48,506 nt of DNA, taken from assembly GCA_016187405.1 (NCBI GenBank), contig JACPJS010000010.1:1-48506 (forward strand), in the 5' to 3' direction. Shown one piece after another: positions 24,647-44,268 of this stretch. A model generated the notes under the pieces. That model was given only the letters and a program-made list of their open reading frames with translations, did no database searches and had not been told where the DNA came from. Position 1 is the first letter of the stretch, and the number at the start of each line of letters is the position of its first letter. Origin of the DNA: Candidatus Aenigmatarchaeota archaeon (lineage in GTDB: Archaea > Aenigmatarchaeota > Aenigmatarchaeia > CG10238-14 > SCSR01). The translations under genes were made by a program, and so were the position numbers.

Positions 24647-25789
24647 TTATTTTCCAAAAACAATCGAAACAACATCTTTGTGCTTTAATTGATGGTCTGC
24701 ACCTAACCTTAATTTTGTCCTAGCATCAACACCTGTAATAAACTTATTGCCTAGCTCTGTATGAACTTTGAATGCAAACTCCTTCATTGTAGTTCCATTC
24801 GGGACAAGTATAACATCGGGTAATTTATTTCCATCTTTGTCAGTCAATTTGTTTGCATCGGCAACAGGATACACGGCAATGTAATTAAGAATATCAAATA
24901 CGGATTTGTTCAAACATTCTTGTACACCTGTAGAATTGAACTTGTCAAGAACCTGACTCTTAATATATTCCAAGCCTACCTTTCTAGCAGAGTCTAATTC
25001 ACCAACAATCTCAAAACTGTTTCCATTATATTTTATTAGATATTTTTCATCTGCTTTCTTCAATGCAATTTCAGATTCGGCACTTGTAGGTATCATATTA
25101 GAATAATCCTTTTTCAATTTTTCATAATTTTCCTGCGACGGTTTCAAATCAATCTTATTCGCTGCTATTATGAATGGTTTTGATATTCTCCTAAGCTCTT
25201 TGGAAAAGTTTTCCATGTCTTCAATGGTATATTTTTGCAACGTCTGAGAGACTTCGTTTCTTGTCACACCAAGTCCACTTAATTTTTCCTGGAGCAGAAC
25301 TATCAAATCAGATTCTGAAGATGGTAATTTTAATTTCTCAATATTTCTTTTCACAACAGACTCAAACCATAAATCAATCTCTTCCCGTAGAAATTCTATT
25401 TCCTTTGTTGGATCGAAATTTTCTGTTGGTTTACCTTCTTCATCAGTCATACCAGATGCGTCAATAATCTGAATCATAACAGACGCTTGACGTATATCGT
25501 CCAGGAATTTATTTCCAATTCCTTTTCCCAAATGTGAACCCGGTATCAATCCTCCCACATCTACAAGATTTACTGGAATGTATCTTTTGCCGTTTTTACA
25601 AACACCGTGTTTAGGTTTGCAGGTCGTATTGAATTCCTTGCATATACAATCTATCGTAACATACGCCACACCTTTATTCGGATTTATCGTAGTGAATGGG
25701 ACTGAAGATGTCTTCACATCAATCATAGTCGCTGCTTTGAAGAAACTTGACTTGCCTGCAGACGGTTTACCGATAAGACCGATTATCAT
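24647..25789 (-). CDS. Obg/YchF-family GTPase with C-terminal TGS domain
   Basis: G1 is GLIGKPSAGKSS, G3 is DVGGLIPG and G4 is ANKID, with a TGS-like C-terminus (KHKDVVSIVF). Start taken at ATG 25789. Confidence 0.85.
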   Translation of the reverse strand: MIIGLIGKPSAGKSSFFKAATMIDVKTSSVPFTTINPNKGVAYVTIDCICKEFNTTCKPKHGVCKNGKRYIPVNLVDVGGLIPGSHLGKGIGNKFLDDIRQASVMIQIIDASGMTDEEGKPTENFDPTKEIEFLREEIDLWFESVVKRNIEKLKLPSSESDLIVLLQEKLSGLGVTRNEVSQTLQKYTIEDMENFSKELRRISKPFIIAANKIDLKPSQENYEKLKKDYSNMIPTSAESEIALKKADEKYLIKYNGNSFEIVGELDSARKVGLEYIKSQVLDKFNSTGVQECLNKSVFDILNYIAVYPVADANKLTDKDGNKLPDVILVPNGTTMKEFAFKVHTELGNKFITGVDARTKLRLGADHQLKHKDVVSIVFGK

Positions 25790-25821
25790 ATCAAATAAAC
25801 ATCTAGTCAAGAATTAAAGAG

Positions 25822-26142
25822 TTAGCTTTTTGCCATTGTGTAGATTTCTTTCACCATTCTTTCTATGTTCGCGATTCTCTGGTTGATTGCTTCATATTCC
25901 AATTTCAAACTGTCCATCTGTGCAGACATCAAATCAACTCTGGCTCCTGTATTATCTGCACTGGGATAACTAGTCTGCTGGTTTGGATATTGTGACTGTG
26001 GCGGATAGTTTGTTTGAGGTTGGTATTGTGATTGGTTTGGATAAGATGTTTCATCTTCCTTTTTCTTGAAAAGTTTGGTTGGTAATAGGATTATCTTGAA
26101 TGGCAAAGTAACGACTGATTTTAGAATATCTCCAACTCCCAT
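25822..26142 (-). CDS. Hypothetical protein with Q/P/Y-rich low-complexity linker and C-terminal coiled coil
   Basis: 106 aa: an amphipathic N-terminus, then SYPNQSQYQPQTNYPPQSQYPNQQTSYP, then heptad-like LKLEYEAINQRIANIERMVKEIY. Confidence 0.6.
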   Translation of the reverse strand: MGVGDILKSVVTLPFKIILLPTKLFKKKEDETSYPNQSQYQPQTNYPPQSQYPNQQTSYPSADNTGARVDLMSAQMDSLKLEYEAINQRIANIERMVKEIYTMAKS

Positions 26143-26146
26143 TCAA

Positions 26147-26662
26147 TTACCTCATTACTGCCTCTGCTGAAATTCCAAGTGATTTCTGGATTGCATTTCT
26201 CAAATCTGTCACCTTTATCCTACATTCCTCTATTAGATTTCGTCTCACGTCATTATAAAGAGTTCTCAGGTATATCCATCTCAATGATTTGTAAATCGGG
26301 CTGGTGTTCCACATGTTGTTTTCATCAAAACCAGTTTTTATTTTTCCTGTGATCATTACCGTAACTTCACCATCCTTGTTTGGATCGGGATTGTTCTTTC
26401 CCTGAACTATAACTTCTATAAAGGCTTTCGTCCACATGTCATAACCCTTCACCACTATGAACCTGAACAAAAAGTCTCTCATGGCTCCTGTATTGTCCCA
26501 TCTGAATTCCCTTTCCCAGACATCTTTACCTCTGACATCGAATATCGCTCTTAGAAGTTGGGGTATCGAATGGTAGATACGGAATGGGTTCGGTCCCTTG
26601 TAATCAACTTTAATAATTCTCTCTGGTACCAGACAATCGTCTTCCAATATCCATTTTGCCAT
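26147..26662 (-). CDS. Hypothetical protein, paralog 2 of a tandem pair
   Basis: 171 aa. It shares Y-x-GPNP-x3-IY, EREFRWD, GKI(K/R)T, N-x-W-x2-S-x-IY and IE(E/D)CR blocks with ORF 26667..27194. Confidence 0.7.
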   Translation of the reverse strand: MAKWILEDDCLVPERIIKVDYKGPNPFRIYHSIPQLLRAIFDVRGKDVWEREFRWDNTGAMRDFLFRFIVVKGYDMWTKAFIEVIVQGKNNPDPNKDGEVTVMITGKIKTGFDENNMWNTSPIYKSLRWIYLRTLYNDVRRNLIEECRIKVTDLRNAIQKSLGISAEAVMR

Positions 26663-26666
26663 TTAA

Positions 26667-27194
26667 TCACGTCTTCGGTAGCAAGTTGAAGAAGCTCTTT
26701 AATTCATCACTAAAAGCAAGCAACAGTTCACGGCAGTCCTCGATATATTTCTTTCTAGTGGACTCGTAAATAAATTTATGATAAAATGTTCTAAACATTT
26801 CATAAATCAAACTTCTCTGCCACGTGTTATCTTGAGGGTATTCTGTTCTAATTTTTCCTTCAAAAGTGATTTTAACCGAACCTTCCTTGCCAAATTCCTT
26901 GCTTGGTTTTACAGTACCGTCGATTGTAACAGTAACATCACGGAATGTGTAGAAATCTAGGTCCTTTATAGTCTCCCATCTTACATGGAAGCTTTCACCG
27001 CTTGCCGTCTTGTCCCATCTGAATTCCCTTTCCTGGAGTTCCTTTTCTGTAATGTTGAACAAGGTGTAGAATTGCTTTCTGATAAATTCGTATATCTGCT
27101 GTGGGTTGGGTCCTGTATATTCTATAGTCGCGGCAGGTCTCGGTATGAGGCAGTAATCATGTATCAAAATCCTTGATCTTTGGAATACTGGCAA
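26667..27194 (-). CDS. Hypothetical protein, paralog 1 of a tandem pair
   Basis: 175 aa with a TTG start, which is supported by the alignment of RILIHDYCLIP with WILEDDCLVP of the paralog. It shares the same blocks as ORF 26147..26662. Confidence 0.7.
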   Translation of the reverse strand: MPVFQRSRILIHDYCLIPRPAATIEYTGPNPQQIYEFIRKQFYTLFNITEKELQEREFRWDKTASGESFHVRWETIKDLDFYTFRDVTVTIDGTVKPSKEFGKEGSVKITFEGKIRTEYPQDNTWQRSLIYEMFRTFYHKFIYESTRKKYIEDCRELLLAFSDELKSFFNLLPKT

Positions 27195-27257
27195 TAAATC
27201 ACTGAATAAAATATTGTGTTCTTTTAAACTAAAAAGTATAGGTTACCAAATAATAGT

Positions 27258-27443
27258 ATGGTCTGGGATAAGATACTGGGCTGGATACTGACATTGGTAG
27301 GATTGTTCTTCATAGTCGCCATGCCTGGCATGGGTACAGGTGGTCCAGGAAAAGGCTATCAACCAGTTGAATTTGGAAACTCGTTCGTTCTGATAGGAAT
27401 CATTCTGACAGCCATAGGCATATTTCTCATAGTAAAAACTTAA
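27258..27443 (+). CDS. Hypothetical two-helix small membrane protein
   Basis: 61 aa with two hydrophobic helices flanking a Gly/Pro loop (GMGTGGPGKGYQP). It is the first ORF of the plus-strand operon. Confidence 0.5.
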   Translation: MVWDKILGWILTLVGLFFIVAMPGMGTGGPGKGYQPVEFGNSFVLIGIILTAIGIFLIVKT

Positions 27444-27470
27444 TGAAAAGGGAAATACATAATATAATTG

Positions 27471-29288
27471 ATGTCAAACGTATTGTCGCCGCTCAATGAC
27501 CTCATTTTAGATAAAGATCCTGGGTTAGGATTGAATGCAAATCCATTCGAGTCAGAGATATATTTAGATTTGACTGGTCCTCTTGGTTCATTGACTGCAC
27601 AATATTATTCTTTGATGTTCCAGTTGCGTAAAAATGGGTTTGAGGTATTCAAGATGGACGAACAGATCGATGTATCGCCGTCATTCAAACAATATTACGA
27701 TTTGACTCTGCAGCAGAACGCTGCGCTTGAAGCCCAGTTGAAAGCCGGACTAGGGCAGGTTGCAAATGCTATACACGATTATGAACTGATTGCACATGAT
27801 TTGAGAAAATACAAGGAATACCTAGATTATTTCGTGAAAATGGAAGAAGGGGAACATTTGATGAAATCTAAGAAAAAAGGTGATATGGAAAAAGGCGAGC
27901 CAATGAAAAAAGAAGGTGCTCAGCTTTTGAAATCTGTGTTCATTGATCAGGTGGATGCACATACGGGTGAAGGTATTGCACTAAGAACAATTACACAGAG
28001 ATGGCCGACGATAATTGTAGACTTTATGCGATTGGATGACAAGGATATTGACCAGAAAGATATAGCGAAAAAATATCAATTTACAGAAGCTGAAGGATCG
28101 ATACTCGCAACTAAGAACAAAATATTCCTCGAATGGAGGGACAATCTATTCAAACCCACATTGCAGGAAAGATACCAGAATATTTTGAGGTTGACTGAAT
28201 CGAGGAGGAATTCTATTCAAAGATATACTGAAATGTTGAAACCAATCGCTGCAAGATATAAACTGATTACAGATTCCTTGGAGGGTTCGCCCGGAAGAGC
28301 ATTTGCTACAGGAGGATTCTTTCAACCTTCTTCCCAAGCATATTCAATAGACCAAACACGAATTTGGGCCTTCCTCCCGTTCGAGCCTGCTGAAAAGTAC
28401 AAGTACACGAGAGAATTTGTCAATGAAATTCCGATAAGTCAAACAGGATTTAAAAAAGACCACATAGAAGAATTAATTAAAATGGGAAAAATCAAAAAGA
28501 AAGATGAAAAAGTGGATTCATTGCCAATCGAGCCGTCCATCGATGAAATTATATGGAGATATTTCGACAGGGTGCAGGATTATTACAAGGTCAAACTAAC
28601 GATAGGTGATATTTTTGAAGCAAGAAAACGTCTTGTTGATTATTTCAAAATGCACATGCCAGAAGTTTATGGAGGATCACTAAAACCAGGAGGAACAACT
28701 TCTGGAAATACATGGATACTCAGTCCGTATTTTGTATTTCTTGACATACCTTTTATAAGAGCAGTTTTGAGAATGCCTAATGGTGATGAACTGGAAAATT
28801 TGATGTTGTCGAACATGACAGTTCAAAATAGATCACAGAATGTTATCATAGTCAATTTGTTGGAAGTAATAGCACGTGAGAAACAGTTAGAAAACTATAT
28901 CAATCAACTCTTGGGTGAAGTTGGAGTTAGTAATCCCGAAGAAGTTAGAAAAGGGAAGATACCTGAATTTGATACAATTGAAAATATGGCGAAGAAACAG
29001 TATCCTAGAATATTCAAAACTAAAGAAGAGTTGGAAAAGGAAGAAAAGAAAAAAATGGAGAAATTAAAAGACCAGAGACCACCGGTAACAAAGGCTAAGA
29101 ATGTAATTGGAGATTTCCTAAATCTATTCGGAATCAAGCTGGGATTCTTCAGAGGAAGGGGCCCTTACGAAATTGCAATGGACGACAGAATTTCAGAAAT
29201 GTATCAGTTGGAAGCTGCATTCCAGGGTTATCTCTTTGTTCTAAGATATTTACAACAAGGTGCAGGAGTACCTGGAGTAAAGGTATAA
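27471..29288 (+). CDS. Hypothetical 605-aa protein (coiled-coil segments, no recognisable catalytic motif)
   Basis: A long ORF with native codon choice (TTG/TTC/CAG) and an ATG at 27471. The stop overlaps the next start (TAATG). No P-loop or other motif was recognised. Confidence 0.75.
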   Translation: MSNVLSPLNDLILDKDPGLGLNANPFESEIYLDLTGPLGSLTAQYYSLMFQLRKNGFEVFKMDEQIDVSPSFKQYYDLTLQQNAALEAQLKAGLGQVANAIHDYELIAHDLRKYKEYLDYFVKMEEGEHLMKSKKKGDMEKGEPMKKEGAQLLKSVFIDQVDAHTGEGIALRTITQRWPTIIVDFMRLDDKDIDQKDIAKKYQFTEAEGSILATKNKIFLEWRDNLFKPTLQERYQNILRLTESRRNSIQRYTEMLKPIAARYKLITDSLEGSPGRAFATGGFFQPSSQAYSIDQTRIWAFLPFEPAEKYKYTREFVNEIPISQTGFKKDHIEELIKMGKIKKKDEKVDSLPIEPSIDEIIWRYFDRVQDYYKVKLTIGDIFEARKRLVDYFKMHMPEVYGGSLKPGGTTSGNTWILSPYFVFLDIPFIRAVLRMPNGDELENLMLSNMTVQNRSQNVIIVNLLEVIAREKQLENYINQLLGEVGVSNPEEVRKGKIPEFDTIENMAKKQYPRIFKTKEELEKEEKKKMEKLKDQRPPVTKAKNVIGDFLNLFGIKLGFFRGRGPYEIAMDDRISEMYQLEAAFQGYLFVLRYLQQGAGVPGVKV

Positions 29289-31126
29289 TGACATATAATA
29301 TTGCTGTTACTAGTGGCTTGTGGAGCATAGCACGTGGAAGAGATCTTGCTGGAATAAAAGCAAAAATTTCTCAGGTTCTTACACAAGGTGTTAATAGCAT
29401 TCAGGTTGATCTTGACAGCGTTTCTGAATTGACCGAACCTGGAATCGAAGACACGATAAGAAGATTCGTTGATGACCTTCAGGTGAAATGGGTCATGCAT
29501 ACCGAGATCATCGAAGAGACTGCACTTGAGACAGCTATGCAAACTACATGGAGGCATTCTCAGAGAAGATTGCACATGTACTTGGACACGCTGTATGAGA
29601 AATTTGTGAAGAAGGGTCTGAAGAAATTACTGCCAGAATACATAAACTTTCATATTTCGATAATGATGTCGATGGGTTATTTTGGTGAACGTTATAGAAT
29701 CGCTGGTATGCCGATGCTAACTTTTGGTGGGGAGTATGATTGGTCTGCAAAATTTTTGGATATACCTGCAAATGAAGATTTGAAAGACTGGTTTAGAAAA
29801 GATATGGTGATGATAGTAATAGGGCGAGAAGCGCCTATAGCTATCACTCCAACAGAACTTAGAATTAGAACTAGGGGTAACGTCGCTGCAAGAAATTTTC
29901 AAAATATGCAGCGTGAAAATCCTTCTGAATTAGGTAGGCGTGTACAGGAATTTCAAAATAGAAATAATAACAGGCAACCTGATCTTGACAATCCTAATGA
30001 TTTGATACAAATAATGGGCGAGCCGAATGAAAAAGATGTGGGTGATGAGTTGATAAAACAATGGTTGGAATACAGTAGGATGAGATTCAACAGAGGTGCT
30101 ATAACAGACGAAGAGGTCGCATATGCTGTAATAACAAAGTATCTTGAACTAAAGAGAAATGATCCAAAAGAACCTTTATGGAAACTTTTCTTCGGCGATA
30201 AAACAATAGATGAAATGGAGGGAAAAATAGGAGAAAAGAAGAAATGGGAGAAACCATTAATCAACATTGATACAAATGAAATTTATTTACACCCTGATGT
30301 AATTGCTATGGTAGCATGCAGATACATTTTAGGCCATTTCGATTCGGATCCAGGAGAATTCTACTTGGACGAGAGTTACAAAACAAATCCTGATAGAGAC
30401 AAAGATCCATTTTTCAAAAAGAAAGCTATAGAAAAATTAAAAGAGATGGGGCCCAATTTGGTTTTGGTTTTTGAGAATCCTGAAGCCGCGCCAGGATCAG
30501 AAGGATTGAGAAGAGTGTTCCATGCGAAGCACATGTATAATTTTGTCAAGGCTGCGCAGGATGTACTGAAAACAAATCAGATACGTTTGTTGATAGATTT
30601 CAATCATTGGCTCAATCAGGGAATAGATCCTGAAAGAGAAGTTGATCAGGTATCAAAGGAGGCCCCTGATTTCGGGAAATATGTATTCGCAACTCACATA
30701 TACAATCCTGTTGGTGTGCACGAGCACATGCCATTTGAAATCCCATCAGACGAACAATTCAGGATGTATGGTTGGTTATACAAATTACGACAGGTTGGGT
30801 TCAAGGACGGTTTCCTTACGTTTGAAAGGGGTGGTGGGCAGAACATGTTGGAAATAGCAAGATCTGTAATACCTGCATTGAGGGAAATCAGAACTCACCT
30901 AGAGAAAGACATAGCACCCGACAAGCTTCCGATGGAGTTCTTCGGTATATCCCCAGAAGGAATTCTATCTCCACAGAGACAGATGGTCATCATACGAGAG
31001 CATGCAAGAGATCCATTGAGAGGATTGATTCTATCTCCAGAAGAGGAACACACAGCATTGGGCAAAGAAGCACTTTCCAAACCTGGCATGACTCCTGAGA
31101 AATGGAAGAAAGAAGAATTAAGATAG
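29288..31126 (+). CDS. Xylose-isomerase-like (AP endonuclease 2 type) TIM-barrel protein with a large internal insertion
   Basis: Strand motifs line up with the 265-aa TIM-barrel gene at 33285: YINFHIS/LINFHFY, LVLVFENPE/LTVMYENSP, RLLIDFNHW/KVHLDIPHA, ATHIYNP..HEHMPF/IAHIHLHDN..DQHLPL and FLTFERG/ITLEVF. About 250 extra residues lie between the NFH and FEN blocks. Confidence 0.7.
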   Translation: MTYNIAVTSGLWSIARGRDLAGIKAKISQVLTQGVNSIQVDLDSVSELTEPGIEDTIRRFVDDLQVKWVMHTEIIEETALETAMQTTWRHSQRRLHMYLDTLYEKFVKKGLKKLLPEYINFHISIMMSMGYFGERYRIAGMPMLTFGGEYDWSAKFLDIPANEDLKDWFRKDMVMIVIGREAPIAITPTELRIRTRGNVAARNFQNMQRENPSELGRRVQEFQNRNNNRQPDLDNPNDLIQIMGEPNEKDVGDELIKQWLEYSRMRFNRGAITDEEVAYAVITKYLELKRNDPKEPLWKLFFGDKTIDEMEGKIGEKKKWEKPLINIDTNEIYLHPDVIAMVACRYILGHFDSDPGEFYLDESYKTNPDRDKDPFFKKKAIEKLKEMGPNLVLVFENPEAAPGSEGLRRVFHAKHMYNFVKAAQDVLKTNQIRLLIDFNHWLNQGIDPEREVDQVSKEAPDFGKYVFATHIYNPVGVHEHMPFEIPSDEQFRMYGWLYKLRQVGFKDGFLTFERGGGQNMLEIARSVIPALREIRTHLEKDIAPDKLPMEFFGISPEGILSPQRQMVIIREHARDPLRGLILSPEEEHTALGKEALSKPGMTPEKWKKEELR

Positions 31127-31152
31127 TTAATTCACCACTTCTAAGTAACAGT

Positions 31153-31164
31153 AAGCTTTATATA
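31153..31164 (+). promoter_or_regulatory. BRE/TATA-like box AAGCTTTATATA, 21 nt upstream of ATG 31186
   Basis: This is the consensus-like archaeal box. The spacing implies a leaderless mRNA and a separate transcription start inside the block. Confidence 0.55.
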
Positions 31165-31185
31165 CGCTGGATGTGAAAGATATTT

Positions 31186-32046
31186 ATGGTTTTCGAAAAA
31201 CTCGAACAAGATTTGGAAGATACGGAACTTGTAAAGAAGGAAAACAAGGATAACACTATCAATTCAGCCAACAAAGAAACGATAGAAAAGGCTGTTGCGT
31301 TCACAAACTCATTGAGAAAGCAATACGGTGAACTTGTAAAATCAGTTCTTATCTTCGGTTCAAGCGTTAAAGGGACCATGGTTAAGGGTTCTGACATTGA
31401 CATGTGGGTCATTCTTGATGATACTGCGACTAAAGCGTCTCAGGACATCAACAGGATAATCGACCATGCACACATACTGGCAGGTGAGTTCAAAGACATG
31501 CATCTGCAGATCCACACATTGACAGAATTCTGGCAGTCTATAAGAATCGGTTCGCCTGAATTTTCAAACTTTCTTAGATATGGACTTGCAATCTATGACA
31601 CTGGATTCATTAAACCTATCCAAAGAATGTTGCAGATGGGATTGATTCCACCTAGTGACGAGACAATAAGTTTGAAGGCGAGATCATCAATAACAAGATT
31701 CAGAAAAATAAAACAAGAGGTCAAGCTTTTGATTTTCGATTTGAGATACACAATGTTGGACATGGTACAGGCAGTCATCATGCATTATTACAAGGAGACT
31801 CCTGATTACAAGAAAGCACCTGAATTCTTGGAAAAACTTGTGAAACAAAAGAAATTGGAGAAAAAATATGTCGATCTGTTTGTTAAACTGGACAAGTTGT
31901 GGAAGGACATAGATCACAATGAAATAAAGAACGTCACGACTGATCATCTTAATGAAGCCATAGAAACAACAGAAGAGATGATTGAAAGAATGAAGAAACT
32001 TTTGCCAAAAGATTTTGTTGGCGAAGAAATGCCAAAGGAAGGATAG
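31186..32046 (+). CDS. Pol-beta-type nucleotidyltransferase domain protein with helical (HEPN/KNTase_C-like) C-terminal half
   Basis: The NTase motif is GSSVKGTMVKGSDIDMWVILDD. TLTEFW and IYDTGF blocks are shared with the next gene. Confidence 0.8.
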   Translation: MVFEKLEQDLEDTELVKKENKDNTINSANKETIEKAVAFTNSLRKQYGELVKSVLIFGSSVKGTMVKGSDIDMWVILDDTATKASQDINRIIDHAHILAGEFKDMHLQIHTLTEFWQSIRIGSPEFSNFLRYGLAIYDTGFIKPIQRMLQMGLIPPSDETISLKARSSITRFRKIKQEVKLLIFDLRYTMLDMVQAVIMHYYKETPDYKKAPEFLEKLVKQKKLEKKYVDLFVKLDKLWKDIDHNEIKNVTTDHLNEAIETTEEMIERMKKLLPKDFVGEEMPKEG

Positions 32047-32048
32047 AA

Positions 32049-33284
32049 ATGCCGAGAAAAGAAGATGAAAGAGATATTCCTGTAACTGATCCTAGTGAAA
32101 CCAAATTGGAAACCAGAGAACAGAGAATGGAACTTGTTAAAAATTATACAAAGAAAGTCATCGACAAATACGGGCAGTATGTCAAAGCAATTGTAATGAT
32201 GGGTTCTGTTGTGAGAGACGAATTCAAACCAAAAAGTGATATCGATGTTTTTGCAATCGTCGACGACACTACATTCAATCTTACAAACGAAATGTTGGAC
32301 AAGATTGATCAGGACATGCTGAAGATGGCTGATGAGATTCCAGAAGCTTGGATAACTGTAAAGAACGAACATGGTAAGGATGAAAAGATTTGTTTGATAT
32401 CAGTACAACCTGTTTATACATTGACAGAATTCTGGGATTATGCAAGAGTCGCCCATCCAATAATTTACAATTTCATCAAGGAAGGCGTTCCGATTTATGA
32501 TACCGGATTCTTTGCACCAATCAAGAAACTGCTTGAGATGGGAAAGATACCTGCGACAAGAGAGGCTATCGAAAGTTACATGGAAGCTGCACCAAAGAAA
32601 TTGAACCGTGCAAAGACTGTGAAACTTTTGATGTTGGCCGAGGATTGTTATTATGCGATGTTGAACTCTACACAGGCAGTGTTGATGTTCATGGGACTTG
32701 CACCTCCAGTTCCTAGCAAGGCTTATGATGAAGTTATTTTACATTTGGTAAAGACAAACATACTTGAACAACAGTATGCAGATTGGCTGAAAGAAATAAT
32801 TGAAATCAGAAAGAAAATCGAGCACAAGGAACTAATGGATGCGAGTGGTGTATTTGTCGACGAGTGGTTGGAAAAGGCTGAAAAATATGTTGACAAGATG
32901 TTCGGTCTATTGAATGCGCTTGAAATGAGAAAGAAAGAAAAGATTCTCGAAAGAACACATGAGGTAATGTACAAGGCTGCTATAACTGCAATAAAGAGCT
33001 TGAAGAAATTCCCTGAAGACACGAAAGACGCAGATGTTGTTAAGAAAGTTGGTTCTGTATATGACGCATTCAACACAGAACTGGTTCAATCCGGAATACT
33101 CGAAAGTTATTATTCTGACGTGTGGAAAAGGATCGAACAGATGAAGAAATTGTCTGACGAGAAGAAGATTAACGAGGTTCCTGACAGGGATGTTTATGAA
33201 ATGAGAGAGCATGTCAGAAAATTGATTCGTGACTTGGCAAAAGTGTTGAAGGACAAAGGTATATCCGAAGAAAATACGGAATAG
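32049..33284 (+). CDS. Pol-beta-type nucleotidyltransferase domain protein, longer paralog
   Basis: Contains GSVVRDEFKPKSDIDVFAIVDD, TLTEFW and IYDTGF. The C-terminal helical region is extended. Confidence 0.8.
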   Translation: MPRKEDERDIPVTDPSETKLETREQRMELVKNYTKKVIDKYGQYVKAIVMMGSVVRDEFKPKSDIDVFAIVDDTTFNLTNEMLDKIDQDMLKMADEIPEAWITVKNEHGKDEKICLISVQPVYTLTEFWDYARVAHPIIYNFIKEGVPIYDTGFFAPIKKLLEMGKIPATREAIESYMEAAPKKLNRAKTVKLLMLAEDCYYAMLNSTQAVLMFMGLAPPVPSKAYDEVILHLVKTNILEQQYADWLKEIIEIRKKIEHKELMDASGVFVDEWLEKAEKYVDKMFGLLNALEMRKKEKILERTHEVMYKAAITAIKSLKKFPEDTKDADVVKKVGSVYDAFNTELVQSGILESYYSDVWKRIEQMKKLSDEKKINEVPDRDVYEMREHVRKLIRDLAKVLKDKGISEENTE

Positions 33285-34082
33285 ATGCTTATGTCTATCA
33301 AATTTGGTTTGTTAACATATCCTAAACTGAATATAATGGATGAGATTAGGACAATCAAGTCACTTGGATTTGATTATGTGGAAATTGGAATAGAGTTACC
33401 TGAAGGTGCCCCTGAAATTCTGATGAAAAAGAAGAACAAGGTAATGAAACTAGTTTCTGAATTCAGTTATCCTGCAATCGCCCATACAGCATGGTGGATC
33501 GATCTTGGTAGTGGATACGAATATATACGCCAGGCATGGGTAGAGGAATCGAAAAAATGTATCGACACAGCAGAAGCACTTGGACTAAAATTAATCAATT
33601 TTCATTTTTATTCAATCGGGCTGGTAGAAGATTACAAGGCATATCACAGGTTTATTGTCAATAACATCATCAGAAGCCTGAAAGAGATTGTCGAATATGC
33701 AGATAGTAAGGGATTAACTGTAATGTATGAGAATTCTCCTACAAAGAAATCCAATGTAGGGTTTAAGGAATACAAGACAATAATGGACAAAGTTCCGAAA
33801 TTGAAAGTGCATCTGGACATACCTCATGCGTTTGTTGAGAACGGAATGGACGGGATAAAAGAATATCTGTTTTCATTCAAGGATAGAATAGCACACATAC
33901 ATCTACATGACAATGACGGGACTGAAGACCAGCATCTTCCATTGGGTAAAGGTAAGATTGATTTTAAATTGCTCGTGAAATGGCTGCATGAAATAAAATA
34001 CGATAAGACGATTACACTCGAAGTGTTCACTAGCAAAGAAGATGCCAAAGATTCTATGATCAAGTTCAAAAAAATGTTATAG
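33285..34082 (+). CDS. Sugar-phosphate isomerase/epimerase-type (xylose-isomerase-like) TIM-barrel protein
   Basis: 265 aa with NFH, YEN, HLDIPH, HIHLHDNDG..DQHLPLGKGKIDF and TLEV blocks, characteristic of the AP_endonuc_2 fold. Confidence 0.85.
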   Translation: MLMSIKFGLLTYPKLNIMDEIRTIKSLGFDYVEIGIELPEGAPEILMKKKNKVMKLVSEFSYPAIAHTAWWIDLGSGYEYIRQAWVEESKKCIDTAEALGLKLINFHFYSIGLVEDYKAYHRFIVNNIIRSLKEIVEYADSKGLTVMYENSPTKKSNVGFKEYKTIMDKVPKLKVHLDIPHAFVENGMDGIKEYLFSFKDRIAHIHLHDNDGTEDQHLPLGKGKIDFKLLVKWLHEIKYDKTITLEVFTSKEDAKDSMIKFKKML

Positions 34083-40003: not shown

Positions 40004-40037
40004 CACTATTCATAGGAACAGGTCATTTATCAAGGCC
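40004..40037 (-). repeat. 3' half of the 23S rRNA processing stem (bulge-helix-bulge-like)
   Basis: nt 40004-40023 are the perfect reverse complement of 43201-43220 (20 bp). A second short helix pairs aaggcc (40032-40037) with ggcctt (43187-43192) across unpaired bases. Confidence 0.85.
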
Positions 40038-43000
40038 CATCAATCTCAGACGATTAGTAAGAGCCAGCTGAAATTCTCGCTCGAAAGCTTGAATCTTACA
40101 CCGCTCTCCTATCAACGCTATCGTCTATAGCAGTCCTCGTCCAATCACCGGTCCTTGCGAACCAGCAATCGGAATAGTTGTCTATTTTTTCGGATGGTTT
40201 CGTCCTTAGATGCTTTCAGGTCTTATCCATGTATGGCTTAGCTGCCCAGCAATGCGCAAACAACTGGTACACCAGAGGCCACGGGGGGATGTTCCTTTCG
40301 TACTTAACCCTCCTTCCGATCAGACAACTGACACCTCCTGTAGATAGCGACCGAACTGTCTCACAACGTTCTGAACCCAGCTAGCGTCCCCTTTTAACCA
40401 GTGGACACCTGTACCCTTGGCCGCTGCTGCACGGCCAGGAGAGGGGGAGCCGACAACGACGCATCAACGCGCCGGGTCAATTTACTCGCACATTATCTTC
40501 TGGGAAATAAATCGACCCCAAAGAGCTATATGCCAGTGAGCTTTCACCGGCCACGAACCCATTATCCCCGAGGTAGCTTTTCTCATACCACCGGCACCCA
40601 TTAATGGTAACCGATGTATCGCTAACCCGCGCTTTCGCGGTTGAATTCCTTGCTGGTCGGAATCCAATCAGACTTCCTTTTGCGTTTATGCTCTATTCCG
40701 GATTTCTGTCGGGTAATGTGAAATGATAAACCGTAACTCATAAGCTACCTCGCTTATCATCTTTTTTTCAAACATAAAGCTTGTATTCATCATCACGTAC
40801 ACAATTCACACTATGACCCGGATGAGGAAATCTTAGGAGACCCTTGATCCTTTATCGAGGGTGTACCGCCCCAGCCGAACTACCCATCTGATGCTGTTCT
40901 CTTGCAAGTAAGCAATACAATTCTGAAAGGGTAGTGTTACAATTGCCTCTCAGTTTTACCCAAAGGCAAAACCTGATAGCGAGTCCTACCTACACTATGC
41001 AGCCAAAATCGTACCGCAACAACAGACTGTAGTAAAGCTCTACGGGGTCTACGTTTCCCACAGGAGGTCTCAGGCCTATTCACCTGAAAAGCAACTTCAC
41101 TGGGTATCAGTTCAAGACAGTAGAGAAGTCGTTAAGCCATTCAGACGGGCCGTCAATCAAACGGCAAGGGATTACGCTACTTTACGACGGTCAGAGTTAC
41201 CGCCACCGTTTACTAGGGCTTTTTTCGGTTGAACCCGAATTTCACACACTAGTACTGGGTAGGCATCAGAAACTGTACTTATCTTTTCAGACTTGCAGTC
41301 TCAGTTGTTTTTGTTAAACAGTCGCTCCCCTCTTGTTATTGAAACCTACAGTTCCCCTTGCGGAAAACCATAGGCACTCCTTCTCGCGAACTTACGGAGC
41401 CAAATTGCCGAGTTCCTTGAACAGAGTTGTCCCAACACGCCTTCGCCTTCTCAGCGAGTCCACCTGTGACGGTTCTCGGTATGGACATGAAGGATCCTTC
41501 CCGATTCGATTTTCACGGGCTCCTAGAGTCGACAGAACTCTACATACATAGAGCTATTCCTACTTTCCTCTCTTTCTCCTCGTTACAAGACTCCAGAGAA
41601 TTCAGTAGTTAACTTGCGTCTGCCTATCTTGAAGCGTCTCAAATCGGGCTTGCGTTACCGCGCGTACCTCCATGGTATCGGAATATTAACCGATTTCCCT
41701 ATCGTGTTTTTAGATTAGCGAAACACTTAGGACCAACTAACTGCCAGCTGACGAACATTGCTGACAAACCCTTGGACTTTAGGCGGCTGGAATTCTCATC
41801 CAGCTATGTTGCTACTATTGGCAGGATCTTTATTTCTACATGATCTACTCCTGCTCACGCAGAAGCTTCTATTCACGAAGAACACTCATCTACCCTCTCT
41901 TTCGAGAGCTTGAGTATCGATAGCTGACTTAGTCCCTTCCATTTTCAGGGCATAAATCCTCGGTAGGTAAGTTGTTACACACTTCTTAGCTAATGGCTAC
42001 TTCTAAGCCTATAGTCCTACTGTCTGAGGATTCACACTCCCTTCTTCGTTTAGTCAGCATTTAGGGATCTTAACTCAAGTCTGGCTTTTTTTCCTTTTGG
42101 ACGCCGAGCTTACCCCAGCGACCTAACTCCGGTCTTCTACGACTACAAGAGATTCGGAGTTTAACAAGAAAACTGGACCTTTCGATCCGTGGTTTTCTAA
42201 TTAGTATCTCTACCCTCCCGTAAGTCTCAGACCAGGCTGCACCAAGATGCATTTCGATGAGAACCAGCTATCACTAGATTCGATAGGCTTTTCACCCCTA
42301 ACCCCGGATCACCCGAAGGAATGGATCTCACAACCGGTAGCGGACCTCCACCTACCTTTCAGTAGGCTTCATCCTGCCCAGGGTTAGATCATCTAGTTTC
42401 AGGTCCTATCCTAGTAACTTCAGGCACTTTCACACCTTGTCCCACGCAGTTTTTACACTGTTACGGACGTATCGCTTTCGCTTGTGTTCCTTGGCTTAAA
42501 CCAATTAACATCGCTACTAGGATAGACTCCCTGCCCCGTTTTTCGGAACGGACGATACGATCCTGTAATCTATCTTTCGTACCACAAGTTCTCACTTGTT
42601 TCCTTCAAGACAGAACCTTCCGGACCGTATCTGACTATGACCACATTGGTTTCAAGCTCTATTTCACCCTGTTTTCACAGTACTTTTCAGCTTTCAATCG
42701 CTTTACTACTTTGCTATCGGACTTTGGCAATATTTAGAGTTGCTAGTTAATTCTAGCGGATTTATGCACAATATTCAGTGTACATTACTCAGGATACTCG
42801 CCATTTCCCACCAATCTACCTCTACGGGACTATCACCCTCTAAGGTGCCGTTTTCCAACAGACTTTAAGTCGAGAGGTTCAGGGAAGACACGAGTCCTAC
42901 AACACCACATCCATCCTTGCTTTCACAAGGTGTTCGGTTTGCTCTGTTTCGCTTTCGCTCGCCGTTACTCGCGAAATCTCAATTGATTTCTCTTCCTGCG

Positions 43001-43186
43001 GCTACTAAGATGCTTCAATTTACCGCGTTCCTTACCCTTTCGGGTTGACTCTCAACGAGCCATGATTCACATTTAGACATTCCAGGGTCAAATCCTCCTT
43101 GCGGATAACCTGGACTTATCACAGCTTGGCATGTCCTTCTTCAGTCCCAAAGCCTAGCTATCCACCAAGTGGCGTATTTATTGACA
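40038..43186 (-). rRNA. rrl: 23S rRNA (about 3.15 kb; ends +/- 20 nt)
   Basis: On the minus strand I read the 5' block GCCACTTGGTGGATAGCTAGGCTTTGGGACTGAAGAAGGACATGCCAAGCTG. I also read the P-loop CTGGGGCGG, the PTC blocks GGGGATAA and GTCGGCTC, GAGACAGTTCGGTC, and the sarcin-ricin loop AGTACGAAAGGAAC. Confidence 0.92.
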
Positions 43187-43220
43187 GGCCTTATTGACCA
43201 ACCTGTTCCTATGAATAGTG
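43187..43220 (-). repeat. 5' half of the 23S rRNA processing stem
   Basis: It is the partner of 40004-40037 (see that feature). Confidence 0.85.
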
Positions 43221-43543: not shown

Positions 43544-44206
43544 ATGCCATACAAACTTTCGCCTTCTTCATTGTCTTTATTGAAAGAATGTCCGAGATGT
43601 TTCTGGCTCCAATTTAACAAAAAGATACATAGACCTAACGGTGTATTTCCATCTCTCCCGTCAGGTATGGACAGAATATTCAAGACACATTTTGATTCCT
43701 TCCGTGACAAAGGATTGTTACCGCCTGAACTTGAAAAACTGGATGGCAGTACGAAATTATTTGGTGACAAGCAAGTTCTGGATATATGGAGAAACAATCT
43801 CAAAGGCATTCAATGGACTGACGATGAAGGCAACATATTCAGGGGTGCAGTCGATAATATCCTCCAGAAAGGCAAGAAACTCATAGTCCTTGATTACAAA
43901 ACAAGAGGATATGAACTGAAGGAAGACACCCATGAACACTATCAGGACCAGTTGGACATCTACAACCTCCTGTTAAGGAAGAACGGGTATGATACAGAAG
44001 ATTATGCATATCTACTGTTCTATTATCCTAATAAAATTAATGAGAACGGGGATGTGCTGTTTCACAATAAGTTGCTGAAAATGAAGATTTCAATAAAGAA
44101 TGCCGAAAGGATTTTTAAGGAAGCTATTAATATCTTAAAGGGAGATATGCCGGAAATCAATGATGATTGTGTATTTTGTGAATGGATTGAAGTGAACAAT
44201 ATATAA
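43544..44206 (+). CDS. PD-(D/E)XK nuclease, Cas4/RecB-like with Cys cluster
   Basis: Has an N-terminal CPRC. The core is GAVDNIL...LIVLDYKT....QDQLDIYNLL, with a C-terminal CVFC. No CRISPR array or other cas gene is present in the window. Confidence 0.78.
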   Translation: MPYKLSPSSLSLLKECPRCFWLQFNKKIHRPNGVFPSLPSGMDRIFKTHFDSFRDKGLLPPELEKLDGSTKLFGDKQVLDIWRNNLKGIQWTDDEGNIFRGAVDNILQKGKKLIVLDYKTRGYELKEDTHEHYQDQLDIYNLLLRKNGYDTEDYAYLLFYYPNKINENGDVLFHNKLLKMKISIKNAERIFKEAINILKGDMPEINDDCVFCEWIEVNNI

Positions 44207-44268
44207 GAAGTGTATTATGTTAAATGAAGAAAACATTAAAAAAGAAATTAAAACTCAATTCTATCAAT

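What the first reader, a model, noticed from the sequence alone, without database searches (positions are those of the whole stretch)
24647..34082. 9.4-kb divergent two-operon block built from duplicated, unassigned parts: main candidate for an undescribed system
Two tight operons run outward from one 63-nt A/T-rich divergent region (27195-27257). Leftward lie two paralogous 171/175-aa proteins, a Q/P/Y-rich coiled-coil protein and an Obg/YchF-type GTPase. Rightward lie a 61-aa two-helix membrane protein, a 605-aa protein with no recognisable motif, a 612-aa TIM-barrel with a giant insertion, two paralogous Pol-beta NTase/helical proteins and a second, minimal TIM-barrel. Gaps inside the operons are 0-32 nt, apart from one internal promoter at 31153. 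Three components occur as diverged pairs (small proteins, NTases, TIM barrels), and all use native codon choice. So this is not a recent mobile insertion but a maintained multi-component unit. I cannot map it to any pathway or defence system I know.
Basis: partly seen in the sequence, partly recalled or inferred. Interest (0 to 1): 0.8.

Follow-up and report, generated by a model that had tools for sequence, protein, structure and literature searches.

The report
Phylum-wide archaeal gene cluster, function unknown
Eight genes, most with no recognisable relatives or known fold, stay side by side in the genomes of one phylum of tiny uncultured archaea (Aenigmatarchaeota), so they probably build an undescribed piece of core cell machinery, not a mobile or defence element.

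Summary
The 171/175-aa pair and the two nucleotidyltransferases are true paralogues. The 612-aa protein is predicted to be a xylose-isomerase-like TIM barrel with a helical insertion of about 265 aa.

The window comes from an Aenigmatarchaeota (DPANN) archaeon. Relatives of the 606-aa protein occur in 202 species genomes, and every named one is Aenigmatarchaeota. Only 240 clusters out of 1.84 billion proteins match its profile.

Across 84 related loci:
- The 612-aa gene follows the 606-aa gene in 72/72.
- The nucleotidyltransferase pair follows in 49/55.
- The 171/175 pair lies divergently upstream in 66/73.
- A small two-helix membrane protein and a small coiled-coil protein usually accompany them.
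- The YchF-type GTPase is a housekeeping neighbour at variable distance.
- The second TIM barrel is present in only 9/45 loci.

The conserved unit is therefore eight genes, not ten.

The 606-aa model (pLDDT 80) has no significant structural match. No known pathway, defence system or virus fits.

My low-confidence mechanism is a membrane-associated complex. In it, a MNT–HEPN nucleotidyltransferase heterodimer and a metal-dependent phosphoesterase-like barrel add and remove a nucleotidyl group on a substrate held by the structural subunits.

The parts
24647..25810 (-). YchF-related Obg-like GTPase with TGS domain. A housekeeping neighbour, not a core member. Probably co-transcribed in this genome, because the gap to the next gene is 11 nt.
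   Evidence: NCBIfam PRK09602 507 bits (cut-off 387). Pfam YGR210-like_G4, MMR_HSR1 and TGS. Within 10 kb in 35/43 loci but within 4.5 kb in only 27/60, with other genes in between.
25822..26142 (-). cc106: a small protein with a short hydrophobic/basic N-terminus (MG-I/L-F..KKK), a variable P/Q/Y-rich linker and a conserved C-terminal coiled coil (…NERIKNIEKMVKEIYxMAKS). Member of the leftward module.
   Evidence: No family. An HMM built from 53 homologues finds it in 58 of 85 sources, always just after the 171-aa gene.
26147..26662 (-). p171: alpha+beta protein, paralogue of p175. Member of the leftward module.
   Evidence: 34% identical to p175, E 5e-34. No Pfam, NCBIfam or PDB match. The pair is present in 66/73 loci. 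An HMM finds 141 ORFs in 73 sources.
26667..27194 (-). p175 (TTG start, MPVF…): the most conserved protein of the block (45-95% identity among the 120 hits listed). Motifs GPNPQ, EREFxWD and RTEYPQDTxWQRS.
   Evidence: 147 homologues, all named ones Aenigmatarchaeota, none with a Pfam domain. Alignment A3. Profile searches of PDB and Pfam found nothing.
27195..27257 (.). 63-nt divergent promoter region. TTTTAAA at 27222-27228 lies about 31-33 nt from both start codons. CTAAAAAG-TATA starts at 27229.
   Evidence: Sequence. The [CT]TAAAAA[GT] motif occurs in 19/72 related intergenic regions against 3.6% of background windows. Promoter function is inferred, not shown.
27258..27443 (+). tm61: a two-helix membrane hairpin protein with a conserved loop (FP…YQPE/YMPD). 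First gene of the rightward module.
   Evidence: Translation. An HMM finds it in 63 of 85 sources. The ORF-cluster members sit at a median of 193 nt upstream of the p606 start.
27468..29288 (+). p606 (605 aa from the ATG at 27471): a long antiparallel helical stalk (helices 73-131, 136-160, 206-271). The tip is highly conserved (FIDQVDAHTGEG…RWPTIIxDF). The base is an alpha/beta domain built from N- and C-terminal strands. No known fold; anchor of the cluster.
   Evidence: AF2 model pLDDT 80.3, pTM 0.71. Best Foldseek E is 0.15 against PDB and 0.028 against BFVD. No Pfam, NCBIfam or PDB match. 113 homologues. 240 clusters out of 1.84e9 proteins. 202 species genomes.
29288..31126 (+). p612: a xylose-isomerase-like (AP_endonuc_2 superfamily) TIM barrel. 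A helical insertion of about 265 aa (residues ~125-390) lies between strands 3 and 4. The C-terminal tail is conserved but poorly modelled. H71, H122, E396, D437, H470, H480 and E513 are invariant, and H440 is kept in 70/72.
   Evidence: AF2 model pLDDT 84.8, pTM 0.84. Foldseek against PDB: ketose 3-epimerases, UlaE and MJ1311, E 1e-4, target TM 0.6-0.69. Residue conservation in 72 sequences. Immediately downstream of p606 in 72/72 loci.
31127..31185 (+). Intergenic gap with TTTATATA at 31157-31164, about 26 nt before the ATG. A possible internal promoter for the nucleotidyltransferase pair.
   Evidence: Sequence only; function inferred.
31186..32046 (+). NT286: Pol-beta-type minimal nucleotidyltransferase (G58 S59 … D70xD72) fused to a HEPN-like helical domain. 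The Rx4-6H motif is degenerate here (W239x4H244).
   Evidence: Pfam NTP_transf_2 4.9e-8. The helical domain gives sub-threshold HEPN PF05168 hits, E 0.003-0.005. Residue conservation. Paralogue of NT411.
32049..33284 (+). NT411: minimal nucleotidyltransferase (G52 S53 … D64xD66), a HEPN-like domain with an intact R254x4H259 motif, and an extra C-terminal helical (HepT-like) domain.
   Evidence: Pfam NTP_transf_2 in 20/20, DUF294 in 15/20, HepT-like in 4/20 members. KNTase matches the N-terminal ~60 residues, E 5e-9. R254 and H259 are conserved in at least 95% of 52 sequences. The pair follows p612 in 49/55 loci.
33285..34082 (+). XI265: a plain xylose-isomerase-like TIM barrel (MJ1311-like). 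A clade-specific add-on, not a core member.
   Evidence: Pfam AP_endonuc_2 5e-39. PDB 3wqo (MJ1311) 8.5e-17. Present in 9/45 loci. No sequence similarity to p612.

Best explanation
SHOWN. This is a chromosomal, vertically inherited gene cluster specific to the phylum Aenigmatarchaeota. It has two back-to-back operons.
- Rightward module: a 2-TM hairpin protein, a ~600-aa stalk protein of unknown fold, a ~610-aa metal-site TIM barrel with a large helical insertion, and two paralogous MNT-HEPN nucleotidyltransferases.
- Leftward module: two paralogous ~175-aa alpha+beta proteins and a small N-terminally hydrophobic coiled-coil protein.
- The YchF GTPase and the small TIM barrel are neighbours, not members.

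INFERRED (low confidence). The products form one membrane-associated complex that runs a nucleotidyl-transfer and phosphodiester-hydrolysis cycle.
- The two nucleotidyltransferases act as a KNTase-like or GlnE-like heterodimer. Both keep the GS…DxD catalytic motif. They attach a nucleotidyl group to a hydroxyl of a substrate.
- The TIM barrel has eight conserved His/Glu/Asp residues that resemble an endonuclease-IV-type multi-metal site. It removes or processes that phosphodiester.
- The stalk protein, the p171/p175 heterodimer, the coiled-coil protein and the membrane hairpin are the scaffold, the membrane anchor, or themselves the targets.
- The function is housekeeping for this phylum, not defence.
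For: Distribution. All named homologues of p606, p612 and p175 are Aenigmatarchaeota. Relatives occur in 202 GTDB species genomes. Only 240 clusters out of 1.84e9 proteins match the p606 profile.

Synteny. p612 follows p606 in 72/72 loci, the NT pair follows in 49/55, and p171+p175 lie upstream in 66/73. tm61 is found in 63 and cc106 in 58 of 85 sources. A reverse look-up from a p175 homologue finds the same block.

Native origin. Codon usage matches the genome. The context is housekeeping: CTP synthase, TFIIB, aIF5A. The other recurrent neighbours are unrelated housekeeping genes. There are no viral relatives, no PHROG hits, and only generic MNT hits in PADLOC.

Enzymology.
- The GS…DxD motif is conserved in at least 95% of both NT paralogues.
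- The NT proteins match KNTase in their N-terminal part.
- The TIM-barrel fold of p612 is supported.
- In p612, H71, H122, E396, D437, H470, H480 and E513 are invariant in 72/72 sequences, and H440 in 70/72.

Membrane link. tm61 has two TM helices. cc106 has a conserved hydrophobic/basic N-terminus.
Against: - No direct evidence shows that the proteins interact or that the two modules share a function.
- The leftward module is absent next to the rightward one in three lineages (7/73 loci). The NT pair is not adjacent in 6/55.
- The link between p612 residues and endonuclease IV ligands rests on my recollection of the Nfo ligand set and on motif order. The only profile alignment, to XI265, is non-significant (probability 2%). 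The ninth position (H478) is variable. No NCBIfam nfo hit was found. The best structural matches are sugar epimerases.
- The intact Rx4H motif in NT411 points to an RNase activity that this model does not use.
- p171/p175 have no structure model here. p606 has no interpretable fold.
- Substrate identity is pure inference.
Confidence: 0.4

Rival explanations
1. The block holds two or three functionally independent modules kept adjacent only by the generally conserved gene order of these small genomes. These would be tm61-p606-p612, the MNT-HEPN pair, and p175-p171-cc106. No single 'system' exists.
For: The leftward module is missing next to the rightward one in three lineages (L001/63/68/74/75, L070/71, L081). 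The NT pair is displaced or absent nearby in 6/55 loci. A possible internal promoter precedes the NT pair. Unrelated housekeeping genes (YchF, TFIIB, GatD, ABCE1) are also semi-syntenic nearby. MNT-HEPN fusions are reported across DPANN in housekeeping contexts (PMC6393860).
Against: Spacing within the eight genes is far tighter and more constant than for the merely syntenic neighbours. The GTPase wanders between -1.7 and -10 kb, while p175 stays at -0.5 to -2 kb and p612 at +1.7 to +2.1 kb. The shared divergent promoter region is kept in 66/73 loci.
Confidence: 0.25
2. An RNA processing or repair machine. The NT411 HEPN domain (Rx4H) cuts RNA, leaving a 2',3'-cyclic phosphate. The endonuclease-IV-like barrel p612 heals the 3' end. 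The Pol-beta nucleotidyltransferases add nucleotides. p606 and p171/p175 bind the RNA or the ribosome.
For: R254x4H259 is conserved in at least 95% of NT411 homologues. The helical domains give HEPN, HepT and DUF4145-type sub-threshold hits. Poly(A)-polymerase-like (MTPAP central) hits occur in 19/20 members. p612 has a conserved His/Glu/Asp set. A ribosome-associated YchF/TGS GTPase often lies nearby.
Against: p606, p612 and both NTs are acidic (pI 5.5-6.7). No RNA-binding domain was detected. NT286 has lost the Arg of the motif, so a heterodimer would carry only one intact half-site. A membrane protein and a membrane-tethered coiled coil in the same operons are unexpected for an RNA enzyme. 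The GTPase linkage is loose.
Confidence: 0.15
3. A sugar or inositol-type carbohydrate conversion operon. p612 (and XI265 where present) act as metal-dependent ketose isomerases/epimerases. The other proteins are accessory.
For: The best structural matches of p612 are ketose 3-epimerases and L-xylulose-5-P 3-epimerase. XI265 hits epimerase families. A TrmB-type sugar regulator lies 2 genes away in the window. p612 has many conserved Trp/Tyr residues.
Against: No kinase, transporter or other carbohydrate enzyme is conserved in the block. TrmB and XI265 are not conserved neighbours. Sugar epimerases need only the E-D-H-E set, but p612 also keeps four more invariant or near-invariant His. This model does not explain the NT pair, the stalk protein or the small paralogues.
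Confidence: 0.1
4. A domesticated toxin-antitoxin or anti-virus defence module built around MNT-HEPN, with p606/p612 as effectors or sensors.
For: MNT-HEPN is the architecture of type VII HepT/MntA toxin-antitoxin systems. PADLOC PDC-S09 (MNT-like) hits reach 4e-11, with weak hits to CBASS cyclases and to candidate PDC-M70A/B. An intact Rx4H motif is present.
Against: The cluster is found in 202 species genomes of one phylum (all named ones Aenigmatarchaeota), at one locus in all but one of those retrieved, at a conserved housekeeping position, with native codon usage. That is the opposite of the patchy, island-borne pattern of defence genes. No PADLOC model matches p606, p612, p171/p175, cc106 or tm61. 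NCBIfam MntA scores 24 and 19.6 bits against a cut-off of 60. No relatives in IMG/VR.
Confidence: 0.07
5. An integrated virus or other mobile element.
For: Weak, sub-threshold coiled-coil hits of p606 to a viral Pfam family (PHA01746-like, E 3.5e-4 to 5e-4, 7/50 members) and to phrog_7201.
Against: No integrase, capsid or terminase. No IMG/VR relatives. BFVD Foldseek is not significant. Codon usage is native. The locus is conserved across the phylum.
Confidence: 0.01

Closest known systems
MNT-HEPN modules: type VII toxin-antitoxin HepT/MntA, and the DPANN cluster cls.004259 ('MNT fused to HEPN', representative NEQ050) listed by Makarova, Wolf & Koonin 2019 (PMC6393860)
   Same: NT286 and NT411 have an N-terminal minimal Pol-beta nucleotidyltransferase (GS…DxD) followed by a HEPN-like helical domain. 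NT411 keeps Rx4H. They sit in a housekeeping context, as noted for the DPANN cluster (PMC6393860).
   Different: They are fused rather than two small genes. They are duplicated into an obligate-looking pair in which one partner has lost the Arg of the motif. They are found throughout one phylum and syntenic, not patchy. They are linked to p606/p612, which no toxin-antitoxin system has. NCBIfam MntA is below its cut-off. Identity with cls.004259 was not tested because no NEQ050 sequence was at hand.
Kanamycin nucleotidyltransferase ANT(4') (PDB 1kny, 6p01) and, by architecture only, GlnE (two tandem nucleotidyltransferase-plus-helical-domain modules that add and remove AMP)
   Same: KNTase is the best PDB sequence match (E 5e-9). 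It has the same NTase plus helical C-domain layout and works as a dimer (established knowledge). Two paralogous modules side by side recall the writer/eraser halves of GlnE.
   Different: The similarity covers only the first ~60 residues. NCBIfam ANT(4') scores 33 bits against a cut-off of 350. No GlnE family hit was found. The GlnE analogy is recalled from memory, not tested.
Xylose-isomerase-like TIM barrels (Pfam AP_endonuc_2): ketose 3-epimerases, UlaE, MJ1311 (3wqo), endonuclease IV
   Same: The predicted fold of p612 matches (Foldseek E 1e-4, target TM up to 0.69). It keeps the E-D-H-E metal ligands plus further His residues in the order seen in endonuclease IV (the ligand list is from my own knowledge).
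   Different: A helical insertion of about 265 aa, a conserved C-terminal tail, and a length of ~600 aa against ~280. Pfam AP_endonuc_2 matches only 1 of 26 members, at E 0.001, plus a 'faint' precomputed hit on the L003 homologue. No NCBIfam family matches. No PDB sequence match even with a profile.
Aenigmarchaeota lineage-specific protein-family module 128 of Castelle et al. 2021 (PMC8204110)
   Same: That paper reports a set of Aenigmarchaeota-specific families 'completely lacking functional predictions'. The p606, p612 and p171/p175 families fit that description.
   Different: The paper lists families in bulk. It describes no gene cluster, structure or mechanism. Whether these families belong to module 128 was not checked.

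Membership tests
Xylose-isomerase-like TIM barrel superfamily (Pfam AP_endonuc_2) - p612 | (beta/alpha)8 barrel of the xylose-isomerase-like type | tested here: met
   AF2 model pLDDT 84.8. 28 Foldseek PDB hits with E<=1e-3, all of this superfamily, target TM 0.57-0.67.
Xylose-isomerase-like TIM barrel superfamily (Pfam AP_endonuc_2) - p612 | Sequence match to the Pfam model above its gathering score | tested here: not met
   No hit for the window protein. 1 of 26 family members hits at E 0.001. PDB profile search is empty.
Xylose-isomerase-like TIM barrel superfamily (Pfam AP_endonuc_2) - p612 | Conserved Glu-Asp-His-Glu metal ligands at the barrel's C-terminal face | tested here: inconclusive
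   E396, D437, H470 and E513 are invariant in 72/72 sequences and in the right order and spacing. Residue equivalence rests on motif order and a non-significant hhalign. No residue-level superposition was available.
Endonuclease IV (Nfo) - p612 | Nine ligands of a trinuclear Zn site (H, H, E, D, H, H, D, H, E; list from my own knowledge) | tested here: inconclusive
   Eight candidate positions are conserved: H71, H122, E396, D437, H470, H480 and E513 in 72/72, H440 in 70/72. The ninth (H478) is variable: H31/A23/Q7/G5.
Endonuclease IV (Nfo) - p612 | Match to the NCBIfam/TIGR nfo models | tested here: not met
   No NCBIfam hit at E<=0.01. p612 is not filed as Nfo.
Type VII toxin-antitoxin HepT/MntA - NT286, NT411 | MNT with GSx(9-13)DxD | tested here: met
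   G58 S59…D70xD72 and G52 S53…D64xD66, conserved in at least 95% of sequences. Pfam NTP_transf_2 hits.
Type VII toxin-antitoxin HepT/MntA - NT286, NT411 | HEPN partner with a catalytic Rx4-6H motif | tested here: inconclusive
   NT411 has R254x4H259, conserved. NT286 has W239x4H244. HEPN Pfam hits are only sub-threshold (E 0.003-0.08).
Type VII toxin-antitoxin HepT/MntA - NT286, NT411 | Two separate small genes, patchy and mobile distribution, NCBIfam MntA at or above its cut-off | tested here: not met
   The proteins are fused (286 and 411 aa). They are syntenic across the phylum. MntA scores 24 and 19.6 bits against a cut-off of 60.
Aminoglycoside nucleotidyltransferase ANT(4')/KNTase - NT286, NT411 | Full-length match to the ANT(4') models | tested here: not met
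   33 bits against a cut-off of 350. The PDB match covers the N-terminal ~60 residues only.
CBASS CD-NTase - NT286 | Match to the CD-NTase models and an adjacent effector | tested here: not met
   NCBIfam CBASS cyclase 19.8 bits against a cut-off of 200. PADLOC cyclase hits are weak, E 3e-6 to 9e-4. No known effector is present.
YchF-related Obg-like GTPase (NCBIfam PRK09602) - 24647-25810 | Score above the curated cut-off, with G domain, YGR210-like G4 domain and TGS domain | tested here: met
   507 bits against 387. Pfam MMR_HSR1, YGR210-like_G4 and TGS.
Any known anti-phage defence system (PADLOC-DB 2.0) | Several components matching the models of one system | tested here: not met
   Only the NT domains (generic MNT PDC-S09) and XI265 (PDC-M70B, E 1.5e-4) give hits. 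Seven of the ten proteins give none.

The most novel reading that the evidence does not exclude
The eight genes encode one phylum-defining, membrane-associated cellular machine of Aenigmatarchaeota. It would be built on at least two protein folds with no known relatives: the p606 stalk protein and the p171/p175 heterodimer. It would be driven by a reversible nucleotidylylation cycle (MNT-HEPN heterodimer as writer, insertion-bearing metallo-TIM barrel as eraser). That would make it a new kind of housekeeping apparatus, possibly tied to the envelope or host-contact biology of these symbionts.
Probability: 0.3. Interest if true: 0.8.

Novelty: categorically new. Interest (0 to 1): 0.6.

Why it matters
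Aenigmatarchaeota are uncultured, have genomes of about 0.8 Mb, and are thought to depend on hosts. Genes kept across the phylum in such reduced genomes are very likely essential.

This block is about 8 kb, roughly 1% of the genome, and its products have no assignable function. Two of the families have no detectable homologue or fold match. Working out what it does would address what is biologically distinctive about this phylum.

It would also give the first functional context for the housekeeping MNT-HEPN fusions already flagged as a DPANN puzzle (PMC6393860). It offers defined targets for structural and biochemical work that needs no cultivation, because the proteins can be expressed heterologously.

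Tried and rejected
**Family scans of all ten proteins**
- Pfam and NCBIfam gave only generic hits for the GTPase, the NT domains and XI265.
- Per-member Pfam scans of the p612, p606 and p171/p175 alignments gave scattered, inconsistent weak hits. PHA01746-like appears in 7/50 p606 members within the coiled-coil stretch and is treated as compositional.

**PDB sequence and profile searches**
- Nothing was found for p606, p612 or p171/p175.

**Structure search with the p606 model**
- Foldseek against PDB and BFVD was not significant. The top hits (dynein stalk, SMC coils, levivirus maturation proteins) only reflect long helices.

**Profile-profile tests for hidden relationships between the families**
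- p17x vs p606, p17x vs p612, and p612 vs XI265 were all negative.

**Defence and virus hypotheses**
- PADLOC, PHROGs and two IMG/VR scans were negative.

**Extra conserved neighbours that might hint at function**
- Only unrelated housekeeping genes turned up: GatD, ABCE1, Lrp/AsnC, DUF488, Yip1, CTP synthase, TFIIB, aIF5A.

**Literature**
- No description of the cluster was found.
- The only relevant mentions are bulk listings of DPANN or Aenigmarchaeota dark-matter families.

- Multimer prediction.
- AlphaFold DB search.
- Whole-genome checks for the leftward module in the lineages that lack it beside p606.
- A direct comparison with NEQ050.

Full report
**1. Observation**

- Leftward genes: p175 (27194-26667, TTG start), p171, the 106-aa coiled-coil protein and the GTPase. 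The gaps between them are 4, 4 and 11 nt.
- Rightward genes: the 61-aa membrane protein, p606, p612 (1-nt overlap with p606), NT286, NT411 and XI265. The gaps are 24, -1, 59, 2 and 0 nt.
- The 63-nt divergent region has TTTTAAA at 27222-27228, about 31-33 nt from both start codons. A CTAAAAAG-TATA motif follows at 27229. A relaxed form of that motif occurs beside the p175 start in 19/72 related loci, against 3.6% of background windows.
- The 59-nt gap before NT286 holds TTTATATA, about 26 nt before the ATG.
- Codon usage of the block matches the rest of the window: RSCU r = 0.973, against 0.965 for two random halves of the rest. GC content is unremarkable.
- The 171/175 pair (34% identity, E 5e-34) and the two nucleotidyltransferases (32% identity, E 2e-36) are real paralogues. 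The two TIM barrels show no sequence similarity.

**2. Organism and distribution**

The window carries an archaeal 23S rRNA. All named homologues of p606, p612 and p175 are from Candidatus Aenigmarchaeota/Aenigmatarchaeota, a DPANN phylum.
- A pattern scan of one genome per GTDB species found p606 relatives in 202 genomes. The 80 best loci are all Aenigmatarchaeota or unnamed archaeal MAGs.
- An exhaustive HMMER profile search of 1.84 billion representative proteins found only 240 clusters. The most divergent named ones are still Aenigmatarchaeota.
- None of these families carries a Pfam domain.
- There are no relatives in IMG/VR.

**3. What is conserved together**

I compared 84 related loci with the window by tblastn, ORF clustering and HMMs. 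Counts use only loci with enough flank.

| Feature | Result |
|---|---|
| p612 directly after p606 | 72/72 |
| Both nucleotidyltransferases downstream | 49/55 |
| p171+p175 divergently upstream | 66/73 |
| tm61 (HMM) | 63 of 85 sources |
| cc106 (HMM) | 58 of 85 sources |
| YchF GTPase within 10 kb | 35/43 |
| YchF GTPase within 4.5 kb | 27/60 |
| XI265 | 9/45 (mostly the window's own clade) |

- Unrelated genes such as NUDIX, KH, NAD kinase, cytidylate kinase and ABCE1 sit between the GTPase and the cluster.
- Looking up a distant p175 homologue found the same block from the other side.
- Three lineages keep the rightward module without the leftward one beside it.
- Other recurrent neighbours are unrelated housekeeping genes.

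The conserved unit is therefore eight genes in two modules. The GTPase and XI265 are neighbours.

**4. The parts**

p612.
- The AF2 model is good (pLDDT 84.8, pTM 0.84).
- It matches xylose-isomerase-like barrels (ketose 3-epimerases, UlaE, MJ1311) at E 1e-4 and target TM 0.6-0.69.
- An all-helical insertion of about 265 residues lies between strands 118-122 and 392-396.
- In 72 distinct homologues, H71, H122, E396, D437, H470, H480 and E513 are invariant. H440 is kept in 70/72. H478 varies.
- From my own knowledge, this order (H, H, E, DxxH, H, xH, E) resembles the ligand set of endonuclease IV more than the four-ligand set of sugar epimerases. No Nfo model matches, and I could not superpose residues.

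p606.
- The model is usable (pLDDT 80.3, pTM 0.71).
- It has a long antiparallel helical stalk. The tip carries the most conserved residues of the family: H109, D110, D159, D162, H164, R177-W-P-T180 and D184.
- The base is an alpha/beta domain.
- Nothing in PDB or BFVD matches significantly.

NT286 and NT411.
- Both keep GS…DxD.
- Their helical domains give sub-threshold HEPN-type hits.
- NT411 keeps an Rx4H motif (R254…H259). NT286 has Wx4H.
- This matches the 'MNT fused to HEPN, house-keeping context' DPANN family noted by Makarova et al. (PMC6393860). I could not test identity with it.

p171/p175.
- p175 is the most conserved protein of the block: 45-95% identity among the 120 hits listed.
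- They have no detectable relatives.

tm61 is a two-helix membrane hairpin. cc106 has a conserved hydrophobic/basic N-terminus, a variable linker and a conserved coiled coil.

**5. Mechanism**

Shown: a phylum-restricted, vertically inherited, tightly syntenic eight-gene unit in a housekeeping context. It includes two catalytically competent-looking nucleotidyltransferases and one metal-site TIM barrel.

Inferred (confidence about 0.4 for the package, and less for the chemistry): one membrane-associated complex.
- The MNT-HEPN heterodimer adds a nucleotidyl group.
- The barrel hydrolyses the resulting phosphodiester.
- The remaining proteins serve as scaffold, anchor or substrate.

Rivals:
- Independent modules held together by synteny (0.25).
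- An RNA cleavage, end-healing and tailing machine that uses the HEPN motif (0.15). Against it: the proteins are acidic and the block has membrane components.
- A carbohydrate isomerase operon (0.10).
- A domesticated toxin-antitoxin or defence module (0.07).
- A mobile element (0.01).

**6. Comparison with known systems**

No known system has this composition. The nearest named things are:
- HepT/MntA and KNTase, for the NT domains only.
- The AP_endonuc_2 superfamily, for the p612 barrel only.
- Two bulk mentions of unannotated DPANN or Aenigmarchaeota families (PMC6393860; PMC8204110).

Every curated family cut-off except the GTPase's is missed.

**7. Verdict**

It lies outside every described kind of system, yet its function remains unknown.

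I score interest at 0.6. It is a well-defined, testable piece of phylum-specific core biology with apparently new folds. It comes from an uncultured lineage, and no mechanism is yet established.

Noticed in passing
window 43544-47787: A low-GC island (GC 0.29-0.34; GC3 0.27 against 0.35 elsewhere; RSCU r 0.91) sits between tRNA-Ala(TGC) at 47881-47953(-) and the 23S rRNA at 40034-43190(-). It encodes a PD-(D/E)XK nuclease, a Schlafen-group-3/DUF2075-type helicase and two MazG-like proteins. It looks like a defence or mobile insertion that splits the usual tRNA-Ala-23S spacer. No 16S rRNA is in the window.
   Followed up: partly
window 40034-43190 (-): The 23S rRNA match spans 3157 nt against a 2987-position model, so it may contain an insertion or intron.
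   Followed up: no
L014-L053, just upstream of the tm61 homologue (e.g. L017:9608-9754): A second family of ~48-aa two-helix membrane ORFs precedes the tm61 homologue in 14 loci. It is absent from the window.
   Followed up: partly
window 31186-34082: NT286/NT411 weakly hit PADLOC candidate PDC-M70A (E 4e-5 and 1.4e-4). XI265 weakly hits PDC-M70B (E 1.5e-4). This hints that nucleotidyltransferase plus xylose-isomerase-like barrel pairs recur elsewhere as candidate defence genes.
   Followed up: no
window 27468-29288 (p606 residues 109-110, 159-165, 177-184): A conserved polar cluster (H109 D110; D159 D162 H164 T165; R177 W178 P179 T180 D184) lies at the predicted tip of the stalk. It could be a metal-binding, catalytic or docking site.
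   Followed up: no
L002:15996-16973; L004:15954-16511: In some relatives, a LAGLIDADG-type ORF (L002) or an HD-domain ORF (L004) directly follows the nucleotidyltransferase pair, in place of XI265.
   Followed up: no
L058:7321-7818 and 15 other loci, about 2.3 kb upstream of p606 on the + strand: A ~165-aa Cys-rich protein (multiple CxxC, no Pfam family) lies next to the cc106 homologue in 16 loci. It is not present at that position in the window.
   Followed up: partly
window 29288-31126 (p612 residues 571-612): The C-terminal tail of p612 (…APEEEHTALGKEALxKPGMTPEKWKKEELR) is almost invariant across the family but modelled with pLDDT below 50 at residues 571-589. It may be a docking or auto-regulatory peptide.
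   Followed up: no
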